Shown here in pieces: positions 6,728-34,549 of a stretch of DNA of 64,000 nucleotides. Position 1 is the stretch's first letter; every line of letters begins with the position of its first letter. The position numbers and the translations under genes were made by a program. The stretch is from Squalus acanthias (lineage: Eukaryota). The stretch covers positions 11,532,001-11,596,000 of the forward strand of contig CM059432.1 in assembly GCA_030390025.1 (NCBI GenBank), given 5' to 3'. The notes below the pieces were generated by a model. It was not told the DNA's origin. It saw only the letters and a program-made list of their open reading frames with translations, and did not search any database.

Positions 6728-7960
6728 TAGAAATCATAGAATCATAGACATTTACAGCACAGAAGGAGGCCATCCAGCCTATCGTGTCTGTGCCAGCCGA
6801 AAAAAAGCTATACAGCCTAATCCCACTTTCCAGCTCTTGATCCGTAGCCCTGTAGGTGATGGCACTTCAAGTGCATATCCAAGTACTTTTTAAATGTGAT
6901 GAGGGTTTCTGCCTCTACCACCCTTTCAGGCAGTGAGTTCCAGACCCCCACCACCCTCTGGGCGAAAAAAGTTCTCCTTAACTCCCCCTCTAATCCTTCT
7001 ACCACTCATTTTAAATCTATGCCCCTGGTTATTGACCTCTTTGCTAAGGAAAATAGGTCCTTCCTATCCACTCTATCCAGGCCCCTCATCATTTTATACA
7101 CCTCAATTAAGTCTCCTCTGTTCCAAAGAAAACAACCCCAGCCTATCCAATCTTGCAAGGGGGTTGGAGTACAAGAGTAAGGAAGTCTTACTACAATTGT
7201 ACAGGGCTTTGGTGAGACCACACCTGGAGTACTGTGCACAGTTTTGGTCTCCTTATCGGAGGAAGGAGATACTTGCCTTGGAGGCGGTGCAATTGAATGT
7301 TCACTAGATTGATCCCTGGGATGAGAGGGTTGTCCTATAAGGAGAGATTGAGTAGATTGGGCCTATACTCTCTGGAGTTTAGAAGAATGAGAGGTGATCT
7401 CATTGAAACATATAAGATACTGAGGGGGATTGACAGGGTAGATGCTGAGAGGTTGTTTCCCCTGGCTGGAGAGTCTAGAACTAGGGGGCATAGTCTCAGG
7501 ATAAGGGGTCGGCCATTTAAGACTGAGATGAGGAGGAATTTCTTCACACAGAGGGTTGTAAATCTTTGGAATTCTCTACCCCAGAGGGCTGTGGCTACTG
7601 AGTTATTGAGTATATTCAAAAGTGAGAAGTCTCACAACACCAGGTTATAGTCCAACAGCTTTATTTGAAATCACAAGCTTTTGGAGAGCTGCTCCTTCGT
7701 CAGGTGAAGTTATATTCAAGGCTGAGATGGATAGATTTTTGGACTCCAGGAGAATCAAGGGATATGGGGATCGGACGGGAAAATGGAGGTGAGGTCGAAG
7801 ATCAGCCGTGATCTTATTGAATGGCGGAGCAGGCTCGAGGGGCCAAACGGCCAACACCTGCTCCTAATTCTTAAGTTCTTATGTTCCTCATGGCTAAAAT
7901 TCTCCAGTCCTGGCAACACCCTCGTAAATCTTCTCTGTTCCCTCTCTAGTGCAATCACAG
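6728..7960. mobile_element. Nested CR1 cluster: minus CR1 (6728-7152 and 7885-7958) split by a plus CR1 (7153-7885)
   Basis: CR1 C-terminal ORFs on both strands; the minus copy resumes after the tail of the plus copy. Confidence 0.85.
7620..7710 (-). mobile_element. Short Penelope-like terminal fragment (family A) with a degenerate hammerhead motif
   Basis: Flanked by TSD tatattcaa (7611-7619 / 7711-7719) inside a CR1. Minus strand reads tcac-CTGACGA-a-ggagc...ctcc-AAAA-gctt-gtga, with the GAAA core mutated. Confidence 0.75.
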
Positions 7961-8039: not shown

Positions 8040-8700
8040 GAGAAATCGACGGGCGTTTGGACCACGTTGTATGATCTCTCTCTCTCTCTCTTTCTCCCAG
8101 GCATTGAAGAGCGAGTCATATGATTGGATTTAATAAGAAGCCGCTGCAAGAGGCTGGTGTGTGAATTGTGGAGATTCCAGTGTGGTGGAGGCGATGATGA
8201 TGATGATGCGGCTGGAGAAGATGATGATTCTCCTCTTATTCCTCCCCCCGATGGTTTAGGATTGATCCGGTGTTACAATCCCCCCTTTCCATTCCCAGCC
8301 AGAGCTGCTGAGACCATGGCAGAGCAATGCGCCCAGACCCCGGCGGCAGCCTCGGCAGCAGTCGAGCTGGACGCGCAGGAGCTGTCCCTGGAGCAGATTC
8401 TCAAGCTGTACAACCAGCCGCTGAACGAGGAGCAGGCGTGGGCCGTCTGCTACCAGTGCTGCGGCACTCTGCGGCGGCACCGGCGGCGGCGCCCACCCCC
8501 CGATCCCGCCGGGGACTGGCACCCGTTCTGGGGCAGGCTGAGCGGGGCCAGGGCGGTCATCCTGCACCGGGACGGCAACATCAGCATCCGAGCCGATTCA
8601 GGTATGAAATGCGCCGTGTTAATAAAGAGCTGAGTGTTCAGTAAAACCCCCCCAGATGGTCTTGACAAGAGGGGCAGGGTTAGCATCTCAGGCGCGCCAG
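8040..8700 (+). promoter_or_regulatory. CpG-rich first-exon / 5' UTR region of SPIRE1, with (TC)n at ~8074-8095 and (GAT)n at ~8193-8228
   Basis: High GC and CpG density over the coding exon relative to its flanks. Non-repetitive sequence directly after the TE cluster. The TSS cannot be determined from sequence. Confidence 0.55.
8316..8601 (+). CDS. SPIRE1: SPIRE1 (protein spire homolog 1) coding exon 1, N-terminal part of the KIND domain
   Basis: ATG at 8316 in a strong Kozak context (accATGg). Translation contains ELSLEQILKLYNQPLNEEQAWAVCYQCCGTL, matching the SPIRE KIND start; Y-N-Q-P and CYQCC fit SPIRE1 rather than SPIRE2. Ends in a phase-1 donor TCAG|gtatga (gt at 8602-8603). CpG-rich. 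Confidence 0.93.
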
Positions 8701-13349: not shown

Positions 13350-13667
13350 TGATAGCAAAATACTGCGGATGCTGGAAATCCGAAATAACAACAGAAAATG
13401 CTGGAAAAACTCAGCAGGCCAGGCAGCATCCGTGAAGAGAGAAACAGAGTTAACGTTTCAGGTCGAAGACCTTTCGTCAGAACTGGGAAAAAAGCAGGAA
13501 ATGAAATAGATTTAAAGCAAGGATAAAGCTGGGAAAAGGGGGAGGGGATGAAAGAACAAAAGGAGAGATTGAGAGACATTAAGAGATGATCAAGGCAAGA
13601 GGAGGAGTTAATGTGACAGGTTGAGGCTAAAAGAAGTGTGAAATGCACTGGCAGAATGAAGGACAGC
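13350..13667 (-). mobile_element. Penelope-like terminal fragment (family B) with hammerhead motif
   Basis: 13-bp TSD agtttaactctta (13337-13349 / 13668-13680). Shares cagaaaatgctgga...ctcagc...cagcatc...gagttaacgtttcaggtc with the copies at ~27200 and ~59210. Confidence 0.8.
13448..13484 (-). ncRNA. Minimal type I hammerhead ribozyme motif (family B, intact core)
   Basis: Minus strand: AGTT-CTGACGA-A-AGGTC-TTC-GACCT-GAAA-CG-T-T-AACT. Stem I AGTT/AACT, stem II AGGTC/GACCT, palindromic ACGT helix III, putative GUU cleavage triplet. Confidence 0.75.
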
Positions 13668-16172: not shown

Positions 16173-16597
16173 GCTACTCTGAATGTGATTCACAGAATGT
16201 CTACCCTGCCGGATGACACACTATTATTTGTCGTACATCAGGACTATGCAAGTGCGACATCTCAGCGTGTTTCATTACTTCCCCCTCTCCTGAAGATGCT
16301 ATTAACTGGGTTATAGTCCCACAGGAAACGGCGGCCTCTCCAGTTGTTTTTGACCCAAATACTCTTCCTTGTTCATTAATCTAGATAGTGTCTTTTGGTG
16401 GGCTATTTGACAACAGAAGCATCATATTCAAATTAGATCCCACCCTCGGGCAACATCCACACAACATTCTGGCACGAGTAATCCTAGCGGATTTTTCCCA
16501 ACCCAGGGCATGAATGGCCAATTGTTGCCCGAGCTCCGATCAGCTATCTCATTACAGACCAGGGATTGAACCTGGGACCTCTGTTCTGTATATTCCC

Positions 16598-17445
16598 ACA
16601 TCTCACAACACACCGCGCCAACACCACACCGCATCACACAACACACCGCACCAACACGACACTCCACCCACGCTCACACCAACACCACAGCGCACCATGC
16701 CACACCCACACCACACCACACCAACACCACACTGTACCGTGCCACACCAACATCGCACCACACCGTATCACAGCACACCGCACCACACCAACACCACACC
16801 CACATCACACCACACTATACCGTACCACACCGTATCACAGCACACTGCACCACACCCACATCACAGCACACTGTACCGTACCACACCCACATCACAGCAC
16901 ACTGTACCGTACCACACCGTATCACAGCACACTGTACCGTACCACACCAACATCACACCACACTGTACCGTACCACACCCACATCACACCACACTGTACC
17001 GTACCACACCAACATCGCACCACACCGTATCACAGCACACCGCACCACACCAACACCACACCCACATCACAGCACACTGTACCGTATCACACCACACTGT
17101 ACCGTACCACACCAACACCACACCACACCACACTGTACCGTACCACACCACACTGTACCATACCACACCCACATCACACCACACTGTACCGTACCACATC
17201 AACATCGCACCACACTGTACCGTACCACACCAACATCGCACCACACCGTATCACAGCACACCGCACCACACCAACACCACACCCACATCACAGCACACTG
17301 TACCGTACCACACCACATCACACCACACTGTACCGCACCACACCACACTGTACCGTACCACACCCACATCACACCACACTGTACCGTACCACATCAACAT
17401 CGCACCACGCCAACACCACATCACATCACATCACATCACATCATA
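16598..17445. repeat. Complex pentamer-based simple repeat (CACAC / CACTG / TACCG / TACCA / CATCA units)
   Basis: Directly visible; generates the stop-free H/T/P-rich ORFs 16514-17512 and 16566-17516. Confidence 0.93.
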
Positions 17446-18179
17446 CATTTATTCCCAGGCTATTATGGGAGTTCCTGCTAATGTGTTTAATGGTTATATT
17501 GTCAAATCCTGAATGAGATGCTGTCAGATGTAAATCCAGCTCTGGACGATGAGCACCAGGTACATTGCATGTTATCTGATCTGCTTAAAGTCTAAAACAG
17601 GACTGCAGACTGTGACAGTAACTGTACGGGAGACAAGGCAACCTAGATTCCATGTAATTCTATGTATTCAGTGGGTCACAGAAGCAGCTGGAGAATAATA
17701 TACCGACAGTGTGCGCTGAACCACTCATAATGTGTGATGGGAGGAGCTGTAAATCAGAAGTGACAAGTGATCATACATTTATCATTACGTAATTAAACCT
17801 GTAATGGAAATGCCAGTGACTTTACATACAATATCCCATTTCTGCAGGCTGTCATTTTAAGAACATTGGCCTTTTGCCATGGGCTTGGAATTTAACCAAG
17901 GATGTTGCTGGCCTGTTCCCTTGGATGTTAAAACTGCTGTAATGGGAAGACCGTCGCACTGGCGCTCTGGAAGGATGAGAAACGATGGGCTGAAGGGCCT
18001 TCTTCGTTCGTACTTCCCTTGCGGCCAGTGACTTCCGTCGGGGATGAATGGTGCTTGCCGACAAATGAGTCCCATCACGTGTGCTGCAAGAAGCACGGCT
18101 GATGTACGGCGCAGACTGATGGGATTTGTCTTGTCAGTGGCAGCAGGGAATATGTCGGAAGAATCAGACTCTCACTTGG

Positions 18180-21868: not shown

Positions 21869-21926
21869 TGATCTTGTTACCCGTTTGAAGATACATTCTC
21901 AGTCCTCTCTAACAGGTAAATTGTTG

Positions 21927-22073
21927 GGATCACAAGCTTTCGGAGCGCTGCTCCTTCGTCAGGTGAAGAAGGAGCAGGGCTCCGAAAGCTTGTGATTTCA
22001 AATAAAGCTGTTGGACTATAACCTGGTGTTGTGCGACTTCTCACTTTTGTCCAACACCGGCATCTCCGCATCA
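21927..22073. mobile_element. Penelope-like family A mini-insertion with an inverted 5' segment and hammerhead motifs
   Basis: 13-bp TSD aggtaaattgttg (21914-21926 / 22074-22086). Intact minus-strand motif at 21930-21966 (TCAC-CTGACGA-A-GGAGC-AGC-GCTCC-GAAA-GC-T-T-GTGA) abuts a 5'-clipped plus-strand copy. Confidence 0.82.
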
Positions 22074-22409
22074 AGGTAAATTGTTGTTCTGTACAGTAAC
22101 TTTACCTTGCATACAGGTGTGTCTCAGGTGTATTGCAATCCTGTGACCTTATCTGTAAACATTAGGATAGATTTGTACCTCGTAACCGGTGCCTGGAATG
22201 TGCTGGTGGAACCTGGCAGAAGTGGTATTTGCTGACGGTCAACACTGGCCACATACCAGCTGTAGACTGAATCTCGTAAAATCCGCTTCATGTTTCGGGC
22301 ACGGCGCACCTCACGAGCCAGAGCGTAGGAGCCAACCAGAGCTTTAGGTCTCTGTGTCCTTGTGTTCTGTCGTGATATTTTAATCCGGGGCTACTAAAGG
22401 ACCCACCCC

Positions 22410-27197: not shown

Positions 27198-27322
27198 CTC
27201 TGAAATAAAACCAGAAAATGCTGGACACACTCAACATGTCCAGCAGCATCTGTCTCAATAGAGAGAGAGAGAGAGAAAAAAACAGAGTTAAAGTTTCAGG
27301 TCAATGACCTTTCATCAGCAAT
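27198..27322 (-). mobile_element. Penelope-like family B fragment with partly decayed hammerhead (27286-27322)
   Basis: Minus strand CTGATGA-A-AGGTC-ATT-GACCT-GAAA; stem I and helix III are degraded. Confidence 0.7.
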
Positions 27323-27743
27323 CTGCATCCTCTAACTTGCTGTGAGCAATGTCACAGGATATCTGCTCGTACATGCATGTATAAAAGTCATCCGTCCATC
27401 TAAATTCAGATGTCACATTTCAAAGTGGTTACCAAATAAATGGAGTCATTTTGTGCTGTTTTTGCCTCTTGATAAAGAAAGAACTTGCATTTCTATAGCG
27501 CCTTTCTCGACCTCCGGCCGTCCCAAAGCGCTTTTCAGCCACCTAAGTGCTATTGCAGTGTCGTCGCTGTTGTCATGGTGATAACCTGGTGTCCCTGCAG
27601 GGCAGGGGTGGGGCAGGAATCCCAGGAAGCTTCCAATCTACAGAAATGTCCTTCAGCGACTGCCCTCCAATTGATCTCAGGATGTCTTTATTTAAACAAC
27701 TTTCACACATGGAGTTCCTGAACAAAGGCCTTAAAGGGACAGG

Positions 27744-28113
27744 ATGTGGAGATGCCGGCGTTGGACTGGGGTGGACAAAAATGAGAAGTCGCACAACACC
27801 AGGTTATAATCCAACAGATTTATTTAATTTTACAAGCTTTCGGAGCTGTCGCTCCTTCCTCAGGTAAGTTAGCAGTGAGAGAATCTCCCAGAATTCACAA
27901 TTTAAACACAGACAAAATCTATTCAAATATTTCCCTACATCAAAGACACACTAAGAGCACAGCCAAGACAATGAGATGTGTCCCAAGGAAATTGTGAATT
28001 CTGGGAGATTCTCTCACTGCTAACTTACCTGAGGAAGGAGCGACAGCTCCGAAAGCTTGTAAAATTAAATAAATCTGTTGGACTATAACCTGGTGTTGTG
28101 CGACTTCTCATTT
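27744..28113. mobile_element. Palindromic Penelope-like family A element: 127-bp inverted arms around an 85-bp spacer
   Basis: Arms 27777-27903 and 27989-28115, with one mismatch seen. 13-bp TSD ttaaagggacagg / ttaaagagacagg (27731-27743 / 28114-28126). Confidence 0.85.
28025..28062 (+). ncRNA. Minimal type I hammerhead ribozyme motif, sense to the SPIRE1 pre-mRNA (mirror copy on minus at 27830-27867)
   Basis: TTAC-CTGAGGA-A-GGAGC-GACA-GCTCC-GAAA-GC-T-T-GTAA. Stem I TTAC/GTAA covaries with TCAC/GTGA in other copies. Confidence 0.75.
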
Positions 28114-28540
28114 TTAAAGAGACAGGCCAGCCTCCTCAGCATCAAAACCAGGCTCCAGAATTCAAACTACCTGTGAGCAGTGACACAGGGAGATTAGCTA
28201 GTATTTAAAATCAACGCACTAAATGTGTCTTTTGTTTAAGGAGAGTGGTCTGCCACCTGTACGGAAAATCAGCCTGTCTGAAAGGTTGGAAATCCAGTGA
28301 CGCCTCTTACCACTGTATCTGTTTTGTGGCGATTTTTAGAATTCTAAATCCCCACATCATCGCTGTGCAATGAATCTCATTTTCTGTCCTACTTAAACCA
28401 GTCTGTCATCGTAATGTTTTTGAATCTAGGTTAGACCATCTGAGCCGGCCACAGCTAAAGCAAATGCAAGCTGATAGAGAGAGCCCGTGTTCCCATCCAG
28501 CCTTGCTGACTCTGCACGACCAGTGGAACTAGACAATAAT

Positions 28541-29279
28541 GGCCCGTATTTTCTGATCCCTACGGGTGTGTACAAGCTGTGTACACACCCGTAGGGACCT
28601 CGTAAGTGCTGGTTTCACTGAAAACCGGTATTTCTGATCTGTCAAGAATTCTCTTGACAGATCGCACGCCTGCCCGGGAGAAGGGCCTCTGCGGGGGGAG
28701 AGTTCCGCTTTCTGCAGAACCTCCGCCCGCAGAAAACCCTGAAAAATCTTACGCCTGGTAAAAGCAGGCAGAAGACCTGCTTTTACCAGCATAAGAGTTT
28801 AAAAAAGTAAAAAACATTTTTTTTCACTCATTTATAATTTTAAAATAGCTTTTTTAAAAAAGGTAACTTTATTTTTAGCCCCGTAAAAAACTTTAATTTT
28901 TTTTCAAAAATTAAATTTTGAATTTAATGTAATTTTAACTCATGTTAAAAACGTGATTTAAAAAAAATGTATTTAATGTTTTGATGTGTTTTTTCAGTGA
29001 TCTCCATTCATACTTTTGACGGGTCTAAGCTGAGAGACCTGTCAAAAAAGTGTGAAGGGGGATTCCCTTCTTTCATTGGTTCGCCATGGCCCACGTGATC
29101 CCAGGGACGCTTGCGAACCGCCTGCGCCCCTGGGATACCTGGGCCTCTGCGCATTTCGTAGAGCAGAGGCCCAGGAGCGGAAATGTCCGGACCTCCAGAG
29201 CCCTCGGGTAAGGGCGTAGATTTTTTTCCAGATCGGAGGCCTCCGCACGCAGGAAGCCTCCCATCGGAAAATACGGGCC
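28541..29279. mobile_element. Harbinger-like MITE (~740 bp), copy 1
   Basis: TIR ggcccgtattttc / gaaaatacgggcc, AT-rich centre, GC-rich subtermini. An inverted sister copy lies at 51546-52315. Confidence 0.85.
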
Positions 29280-29504
29280 AAAGATTTTGATTCCCAGCTG
29301 AGTCAAAGACCCTCATCTGCCCCCGCCCCCCGCCCAGTCTGGAGTGTGGTTCATAGGATCTTGGTTGGTTTACAAGGTGAGGTAAATTGATTATAATGGA
29401 ATCTTGTACTTCAGATGGGTGGTTGGGGGGGAGGGGGCGGGGGTGAAGGTGGCGGGAAGAAGGGAACAATTGATTCAATCGGCTGAGTTCATTACTGGCG
29501 TATC

Positions 29505-34251: not shown

Positions 34252-34286
34252 ATAAAGGGGAAGCGATCCGGTGCACCGAACCAGAG
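34252..34286 (+). CDS. SPIRE1: SPIRE1 coding exon 2 (35-nt small exon, (D)KGEAIRCTEPE)
   Basis: Strong acceptor tttattttcttttctag| and donor GAG|gtaagc. Phase 1 in, phase 0 out, in frame with exon 1. Length and C-x-E-x-E ending match my recollection of mammalian SPIRE1 exon 2 (GKLGYSQCMETE). Confidence 0.85.
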
Positions 34287-34549
34287 GTAAGCATTTGCTG
34301 AAGTGCTCAAAGGCTTACTGATTATCCTGTGCAGGAGGATCTACTGACAATTTTCTCCTTTTTCCTCCTTCTCCCCTTTTCCTTTCCTAACTTGATTAAA
34401 TCTAAACTCCAACTCTTACTCTGTAGATCTGCTTGCAGATTTTTAAATCCATTACAAAGGGCTGAGACTTCTTTCCCCATGTCAGAAGGAAATGGAAAAA
34501 TTGGGGTTAATTTTGAATTTGGTTGATCGTGTAAATCAGCCGCCCGTTA

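What the first reader, a model, noticed from the sequence alone, without database searches (positions are those of the whole stretch)
27744..28113. Palindromic mini-element carrying a hammerhead ribozyme on each strand inside SPIRE1 intron 1
Seen: 127-bp inverted arms (one mismatch) around an 85-bp unique spacer, bounded by a 13-bp TSD. Each arm holds TTAC-CTGAGGA-A-GGAGC-GACA-GCTCC-GAAA-GCTT-GTAA, so one motif is sense to the pre-mRNA. Established: Penelope-like elements carry minimal type I hammerheads in their pseudo-LTRs and often insert with an inverted 5' segment. Inference: this is either a one-off inverted insertion or a non-autonomous, non-coding hairpin family. In the transcript the long duplex and the ribozyme fold are mutually exclusive, which could give a folding switch or a Dicer/ADAR substrate.
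Basis: partly seen in the sequence, partly recalled or inferred. Interest (0 to 1): 0.75.

Follow-up and report, generated by a model that had tools for sequence, protein, structure and literature searches.

The report
Head-to-head Penelope stub, shark SPIRE1 intron
This hairpin in the first intron of a shark-type SPIRE1 gene is one young insertion of two back-to-back ends of a very abundant repeat, likely a Penelope-like jumping gene; the layout is already described for that class, and the small ribozyme motif it carries is predicted to be locked shut in the gene's RNA, so it is ordinary.

Summary
The palindrome is real: arms match at 126 of 127 bases, each carries a minimal type I hammerhead, and it lies in intron 1 of a shark-type SPIRE1-like gene. 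Two details were wrong or missing. The 85-bp spacer is not unique: it is the upstream body of the left copy and is highly repeated in related DNA runs. A 33-nt one-sided tail, the Penelope-like element (PLE) hallmark, went unmentioned. So it is a 245-nt 5'-truncated PLE end joined head-to-head to a 127-nt tail-less copy. One contig in each of four runs shows the empty site, confirming the target duplication (12 of 13 match). Other copies show head-to-head joints at other breakpoints, which argues for repeated one-off inversions, not a fixed hairpin family. In the pre-mRNA the ribozyme fold costs 60-67 kcal/mol against the duplex, so no switch is expected. Inverted repeat plus tail plus duplication, and paired hammerheads on opposite strands, are in print. 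This scan has noted the same layout many times on other DNA (42 notes, at least 11 genomes). Likely mechanism: both target nicks prime copying from two RNA start sites. Cleavage, editing and small RNAs are untested.

The parts
27731..27743 (+). Target site duplication, left copy (matches the empty allele)
   Evidence: contigs of X1 and X2 join 27737 to 28121, leaving one copy (table 8)
27744..27776 (-). 33-nt PLE-type tail, present on the minus-strand copy only
   Evidence: 101 (X1) and 125 (X2) contigs leave the family sequence before 27743 into unlike flanks (table 7); 30-40 bp one-sided tail described in PMC8557442
27777..27903 (-). Left arm: pseudo-LTR part of the minus-strand copy
27830..27867 (-). 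Minimal type I hammerhead motif, antisense to SPIRE1
27876..27906 (-). TATA-like box (27906-27901) 30 nt upstream of an initiator-like TCACT (A at 27876); candidate pseudo-LTR promoter, complete only in this copy (inferred)
27904..27988 (-). 'Spacer': upstream body of the minus-strand copy, high-copy in organism A; 5'-truncated near 27985-27988
   Evidence: depth; loose ends before 27991 repeat the spacer end in element sense; loose ends behind 27985 show the family continues with other letters
27989..28115 (+). Right arm: inverted, more truncated, tail-less copy
   Evidence: ends at the same family position as the copy at 7615-7712
28025..28062 (+). Minimal type I hammerhead motif, sense to SPIRE1; predicted cut after 28058 (CUU triplet), AGCU palindrome 28054-28057, extra A at 28036
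   Evidence: features as in PMC4209133
28114..28126 (+). Target site duplication, right copy, one substitution at 28120
8316..8600 (+). Context: SPIRE1-like coding exon 1 (KIND domain start)
34254..34289 (+). Context: SPIRE1-like exon 2
   Evidence: 12 of 12 residues identical to P0002

Best explanation
This is a single young insertion made of two truncated copies of the same repeat end joined head to head, likely left by a Penelope-like retrotransposon, and its ribozyme motif is predicted to be locked in a long duplex in the SPIRE1 pre-mRNA. Shown: a 245-nt copy with a 33-nt tail (27988 to 27744, minus strand), a 127-nt tail-less copy (27989-28115, plus strand), both 3' ends facing outward onto a duplicated target, an empty site in four runs, a high-copy family, and other head-to-head joints at other breakpoints. 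Inferred (about 0.6): the element's protein cut both target strands about 11-13 bases apart; each 3'-OH primed reverse transcription on element RNA, one at the end of the tail and one 33 nt inside it; the two short cDNAs were joined to each other by repair. Both copies reach upstream of the predicted pseudo-LTR start (by 112 and 27 nt), so the template likely began further upstream. Inferred (about 0.85): during SPIRE1 transcription the antisense arm is made first and captures the sense arm as it emerges, so the motif never folds; the insertion is likely a neutral passenger.
For: Layout matches the PLE insertion unit in print: inverted 5'-truncated copy, 30-40 bp tail at one end (PMC8557442), 8-10 bp duplications and a 31-bp tail (PMC3846280), paired minimal hammerheads 100-700 bp apart on opposite strands (PMC4209133). 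Empty site: one contig in each of 4 of 4 runs joins the flanks. Same window: 21929-22072 is an inverted piece plus tailed copy between exact 13-bp repeats at 21914-21926 and 22074-22086, and 7615-7712 ends at the tail-less position. Of 15 joints shown (83 more not shown), 10 join a left-arm to a right-arm position, at 10 different breakpoint pairs, 1-4 contigs each; 2 of 2 joints are head-to-head at 27945, not 27988. The anole PLE protein cuts and extends both strands and starts at two sites that bound the tail (PMC11167929). Folding: whole element -242.8 kcal/mol, motif alone -11.6, forcing the motif costs 60-67 kcal/mol. 7 of 9 motif pairs change on both sides across 6 distinct copies.
Against: No reverse transcriptase or GIY-YIG coding sequence was linked to this family; no genome was held and the insert has stops in all three sense frames except short stretches, so PLE membership rests on layout and motif. 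The joints have only 20-28 letters on the short side. Contigs show presence, not absence, so recurrence of this exact junction is not excluded. The copy at 21929 ends its inverted piece just after the hammerhead, not at the tail-less site, so the two-start-site rule is not strict. PMC3846280 favours self-priming on an antisense template instead. The covariation count leans on two families, so few independent events. Folding values are equilibrium predictions.
Confidence: 0.85

Rival explanations
1. Same insertion, but the mirror copy arose by self-priming or fold-back of one cDNA (or copying of an antisense template), not by priming from both target nicks.
For: Proposed in PMC3846280 from palindromes at inverted junctions (passages). 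Arms are 126 of 127 identical, as copying one from the other would give. Some joints are symmetric (27867 to 28025, 27874 to 28018).
Against: Here the junction is asymmetric by 85 nt with no evident shared bases on the arm side; 8 of the 10 head-to-head joints shown are asymmetric; the right arm stops at a position that a separate non-inverted copy also uses (7615), as a second start site would give.
Confidence: 0.3
2. The arm-spacer-arm unit is a non-autonomous hairpin family that moves as a whole.
For: The element is short, non-coding and clean; the spacer is high-copy.
Against: Family contigs continue behind 27985 with other letters in all four runs, and the spacer is collinear with the left arm (loose ends before 27991). 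Head-to-head joints vary in breakpoint.
Confidence: 0.05
3. The hairpin has a host role in SPIRE1: a folding switch that gates ribozyme cleavage of the intron.
For: One motif is sense in intron 1; conserved intronic hammerheads with a proposed splicing role exist in amniotes (PMC6155905, passages).
Against: Empty site in all four runs, including two of the best-matching organism: not conserved. Ribozyme fold 60-67 kcal/mol uphill. A comparable minimal motif did not cleave as a monomer (PMC4209133); the descriptor finds no second intact plus-strand motif in the window.
Confidence: 0.02
4. The insertion is a passenger but its 127-bp duplex is edited by ADAR or diced into small RNAs that act on the family.
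For: Near-perfect duplex predicted; the single mismatch is A opposite C in the plus-strand transcript; siRNAs matched inverted regions of rearranged Penelope copies in transgenic Drosophila (PMC3681739, passages).
Against: No read-level RNA data; intronic RNA is usually short-lived and nuclear (general knowledge); many similar palindromes would make this one redundant.
Confidence: 0.25

Closest known systems
Insertion units of endonuclease-bearing Penelope-like elements with an inverted pseudo-LTR and one tail (Adineta vaga Pen2a_Av, PMC3846280; scheme in PMC8557442 Fig. 2; Drosophila virilis Penelope, PMC2377424; passages read in each)
   Same: Head-to-head inverted 5'-truncated copy, 33-nt tail at one end, short target duplication with empty site, TATA-like plus TCACT motifs.
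   Different: No ORF; only 372 nt; duplication 11-13 bp against 8-10 bp in the rotifer examples.
Minimal hammerheads of metazoan PLE pseudo-LTRs (Cervera and De la Pena 2014, PMC4209133; parts 1-2 of 4 read)
   Same: Type I core, 4-bp helix I, extra base between 9 and 10.1, G10.1-C11.1, palindromic 15-16 positions, two motifs on opposite strands within 100-700 bp.
   Different: Helix II is 5 bp, against 7-8 bp in the Schistosoma families; activity untested.
Poseidon element PAc of Anolis carolinensis (Frangieh et al. 2024, PMC11167929; parts 1-2 of 4 read)
   Same: Two 3' end positions that bound a tail; hammerhead upstream of them.
   Different: In PAc the ORF starts at stem II; here an ATG follows the tail in family contigs (loose ends). 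The parts read do not address how the inverted copy forms.
Metazoan non-LTR retrozymes (bioRxiv 10.64898/2026.07.22.740005, part 1 of 5 and passages read)
   Same: Short, non-coding, type I hammerhead, PLE-derived.
   Different: Retrozymes are tandem arrays with same-strand motifs; this has one motif per strand and cannot release a unit.

Membership tests
EN+ PLE insertion unit | Inverted 5'-truncated copy joined at the 5' end (head to head) | tested here: met
EN+ PLE insertion unit | 30-40 bp tail at one end only | tested here: met
   33 nt, 27744-27776; family end at 27743 in 101 and 125 contigs
EN+ PLE insertion unit | Short target site duplication | tested here: met
   12 of 13 match; empty site with one copy in X1 and X2
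EN+ PLE insertion unit | Hammerhead motif in the pseudo-LTR | tested here: met
EN+ PLE insertion unit | Family linked to an ORF with PLE reverse transcriptase and GIY-YIG endonuclease | not testable with these tools
   no genome held; pattern scans of metagenome and viral contigs found nothing
Minimal type I hammerhead of PLEs | Core CUGANGA, GAAA, UH; helix I and II; extra base after A9; palindromic helix III remnant | tested here: met
   sequence; pairs; features from PMC4209133
Minimal type I hammerhead of PLEs | Self-cleavage, as a dimer or with protein help | not testable with these tools
   needs bench assay; canonical dimer fold -20.7 kcal/mol is not the lowest-energy dimer (-28.2)
Rfam hammerhead families | Score at a family's gathering threshold | tested here: not met
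   0 hits in the window; no hammerhead among 7 hits at E up to 10 in 27600-28300
Non-LTR retrozyme | Tandem units with at least two same-strand hammerheads | tested here: not met
   one motif per strand, no tandem unit
MITE-like hairpin family | Same arm-spacer-arm unit at many loci | tested here: inconclusive
   positive evidence points away (family continues otherwise, joints vary); absence of the junction elsewhere cannot be shown from contigs
Domesticated intronic hammerhead (RECK type) | Conserved at the orthologous site across species | tested here: not met
   empty site in organisms A, B and C

The most novel reading that the evidence does not exclude
The donor is a young, lineage-restricted, ORF-less Penelope mini-family of about 260 nt with a fixed 5' end some 16-19 nt beyond this copy's break, and its palindromes are built afresh at each insertion by priming from both target nicks at the two tail-bounding start sites. 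This still-polymorphic copy, with a known empty site, would then be a clean substrate for testing how PLE inverted repeats form, a step that the papers read leave open.
Probability: 0.25. Interest if true: 0.45.

Novelty: new member of a known kind. Interest (0 to 1): 0.17.

Why it matters
As a locus it matters little: one of many such stubs, absent from other individuals or close relatives. Its value is as a record of PLE integration: two outward-facing 3' ends at the two tail boundaries, an asymmetric junction and a known empty site fit priming from both strands, which the anole in vitro work makes testable. It also warns that paired intronic hammerheads in sharks are retroelement debris by default.

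Tried and rejected
Own genome: none held, so no genome-wide count of the junction. Rfam: no hammerhead hit; the plant microRNA hits are below gathering and reflect any long hairpin. Pattern scans: spacer and arm motifs in metagenome contigs and arm motif in viral contigs: 0 matches. No RNA holder listed; X7 and X11 are only guessed to be RNA, are contigs, and hold family sequence that cannot be assigned to this locus. No listed piece bridges 27988/27989 with 31 letters a side (32 pieces shown, 1328 not shown, longest kept; X1 read to about 55%): a blank, not proof. No contig of X6 or X8 lay on 27872-28003 at 85% likeness: a hint of lineage restriction only. Whether X1 or X2 also hold the filled allele was not seen (32 pieces shown, 72821 not). 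Lunse et al. (PMC5785218) is not held; its dimer result is known only through a review passage (PMC6765202). Earlier-finding look-ups by sequence gave nothing. A symmetric cut in the short inverted repeat around the target was considered and does not fit the duplication ends exactly. Searches for a printed dual-priming model listed none by title or term count; supplements and parts 3-4 of PMC11167929 were not read and may bear on this.

Full report
Observation. The window holds an inverted repeat with arms 27777-27903 and 27989-28115, 127 nt, 85 nt apart, differing at one pair, 27809/28083. A descriptor for minimal hammerheads finds 4 sites in the window (28029 +, 27863 -, 21962 -, 13480 -) and none in any of 200 shuffles made in blocks of two bases. 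The flanks carry a direct repeat at 27731-27743 and 28114-28126 that matches at 12 of 13 positions. Between the left repeat and the left arm lie 33 nt (27744-27776) with no mirror partner, which the finding did not describe.

Host gene. Translation of 8316-8600 matches Pfam KIND (E 8e-21) and human Spire-1 chains in the PDB. The 38 best hits are 'spire homolog 1' or '1-like' proteins of sharks, rays and skates, up to 88% identical. With those proteins, exon 2 maps to 34254-34289 (12 of 12 residues). The element thus lies in intron 1 of a plus-strand SPIRE1-like gene of a cartilaginous fish, and the right-arm motif is sense.

Family and true anatomy. Two other members lie in the window. One, 21929-22072, is a 40-nt inverted piece fused to a tailed copy between exact 13-bp repeats (21914-21926, 22074-22086); the other, 7615-7712, is a single copy that ends where the right arm ends. 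No genome was held, so public runs were used (24 listed; 6 laid). On 27300-28600, runs X1 and X2 (organism A, two studies) give summed contig depth of about 0.85-1.3 million over 27872-27959 against 3-11 over 28224-28487. This is no copy number, but the spacer is plainly a repeat. On 27904-28050, loose ends before 27991 repeat the end of the spacer read in element sense, so in the family the spacer precedes the arm: it is the body of the left, minus-strand copy. Behind 27982-27985, contigs of all four runs go on with a shared stretch of about 19 letters that this locus lacks. The element is therefore a 245-nt copy with tail (27988 to 27744) joined at its 5' end to a 127-nt tail-less copy (27989-28115).

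Empty site and age. One contig in each of 4 of 4 runs joins the two flanks: 27737 to 28121 in X1 and X2, 27739 to 28122 in X6 (organism B) and X8 (organism C). The X1 and X2 join leaves exactly one copy of the repeat, with the left copy's base, so the duplication is real and 28120 changed later. The X1 contig differs from the window at 5 of 650 bases; those of X6 and X8 at 20 and 19 bases plus 8 gap positions in about 650 aligned. Whether organism A is the window's own species is not shown; the insertion is either polymorphic or younger than a very recent split. Three private changes are visible (27809, 27929, 28120) in 383 bases. I do not convert this to years.

One-off or hairpin family. Of 15 joints shown (83 not shown), 10 join a left-arm to a right-arm position, each pair different, each in 1-4 contigs, with 22-28 letters on the short side; one is the empty site and four involve other repeats. 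Both joints are head-to-head at 27945. These read as other loci with their own inversions. Four of the ten have both ends within 15 nt of an initiator-like TCACT (A at 28016, mirrored at 27876) that lies 30 nt behind a TATA-like box; I checked this after an earlier AI note suggested it (e1-8639351). This copy does not follow that pattern: its two halves reach 112 and 27 nt upstream of that point.

The ribozyme. The motif has the traits given for PLE minimal hammerheads: 4-bp helix I, an extra base after A9, G10.1-C11.1 and a palindromic remnant of helix III (PMC4209133, parts 1-2 of 4 read). The predicted cut is after 28058. Across 6 distinct copies in the window, 7 of 9 pairs change on both sides and 92.6% of cells pair, against 19-47% when slid; most of the signal is the contrast between two families. 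Rfam does not detect it. That paper found no cleavage for one monomer and low cleavage for dimers; the anole motif cleaved only with the element's protein (PMC11167929, parts 1-2 of 4 read). Folded alone the motif forms (stem II probability 0.98-0.99 for transcripts ending by 28075), but with the left arm present stem II falls to about 1e-17 and forcing the fold costs 60-67 kcal/mol. The antisense arm is transcribed first and 36 nt of the right arm can pair before the motif emerges, so kinetics would likely favour the duplex as well (inference). This is a lock, not a switch. The only route to a folded motif is a short transcript from the left copy's candidate promoter, antisense to SPIRE1 (inferred, untested).

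Mechanism. Both copies point their 3' ends outward at the duplicated target, one ending at the tail end and one 33 nt inside. The anole PLE protein cuts and extends both strands and starts at two sites that bound the tail. The simplest reading is priming from both nicks followed by joining of two short cDNAs (about 0.6). The printed alternative is self-priming on an antisense template (PMC3846280, passages). Three searches listed no paper that states the dual-priming model for PLEs; unread supplements may. Earlier notes of this scan state the same idea; they are not independent support.

What is known. The inverted copy, the one-sided 30-40 bp tail (PMC8557442, passages), short duplications, inverted terminal repeats of variable size in Drosophila Penelope (PMC2377424, passages) and dual minimal hammerheads 100-700 bp apart on opposite strands are all in print. 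It is not a retrozyme array (bioRxiv 10.64898/2026.07.22.740005, part 1 and passages) and not a conserved intronic hammerhead (PMC6155905, passages). siRNAs from inverted Penelope copies are reported in transgenic flies (PMC3681739, passages), so the Dicer idea is precedent rather than novelty, and untested here. The one defining PLE feature not tested is a linked reverse transcriptase plus GIY-YIG ORF. The scan holds 42 notes with the same key words in at least 11 genomes.

Open point. Beyond the shared 19 letters, the five loose-end consensus rows (1-10 contigs each) disagree with one another. That may mark a fixed 5' end of a family of about 260 nt, or only thin data. No contig of organisms B and C lay on the spacer, a blank only.

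Verdict. Real, young, ordinary: a new member of a known kind. Interest 0.17.

Noticed in passing
window 21914-22086: Second member of the same broad family: 40-nt inverted hammerhead piece fused to a tailed copy, exact 13-bp target duplication; the tail has a short internal deletion relative to the main element.
   Followed up: partly
window 7615-7712 (-): Tail-less single copy of the family, inserted into another repeat, with a duplication of about 9 bp; ends at the same position as the right arm.
   Followed up: partly
window 13456-13480 (-) and 27294-27318 (-): A second family of minimal hammerheads with a different stem II; the 13480 copy passes the descriptor, the 27318 copy is decayed.
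   Followed up: partly
behind window 27985 (table 7): Family contigs share about 19 more letters and then diverge between runs: possible fixed 5' end. That stretch has 8 bases complementary to part of the tail.
   Followed up: partly
before window 27743 (table 7): Loose-end consensus in X1 and X2 ends in CAT, so an ATG follows the tail in element sense, as expected if the tail leads into the next unit's ORF.
   Followed up: no
window 27904-27936 (table 7): Loose ends show at least two variant subfamilies in the spacer region.
   Followed up: no
window 27727-27743 with 28127-28128: The empty target is framed by a 5-bp inverted repeat; the duplication ends are not exactly symmetric within it.
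   Followed up: partly
window 28540-29450: Several short perfect hairpins (for example 28557-28597, 28755-28789, 29138-29175) inside a repeat whose ends at 28540-28557 and 29263-29280 are inverted; high-copy in all four runs at 28532-28600.
   Followed up: no
window 16488-17516: Low-complexity repeat of about 1 kb that reads as His/Thr/Pro-rich open frames.
   Followed up: no
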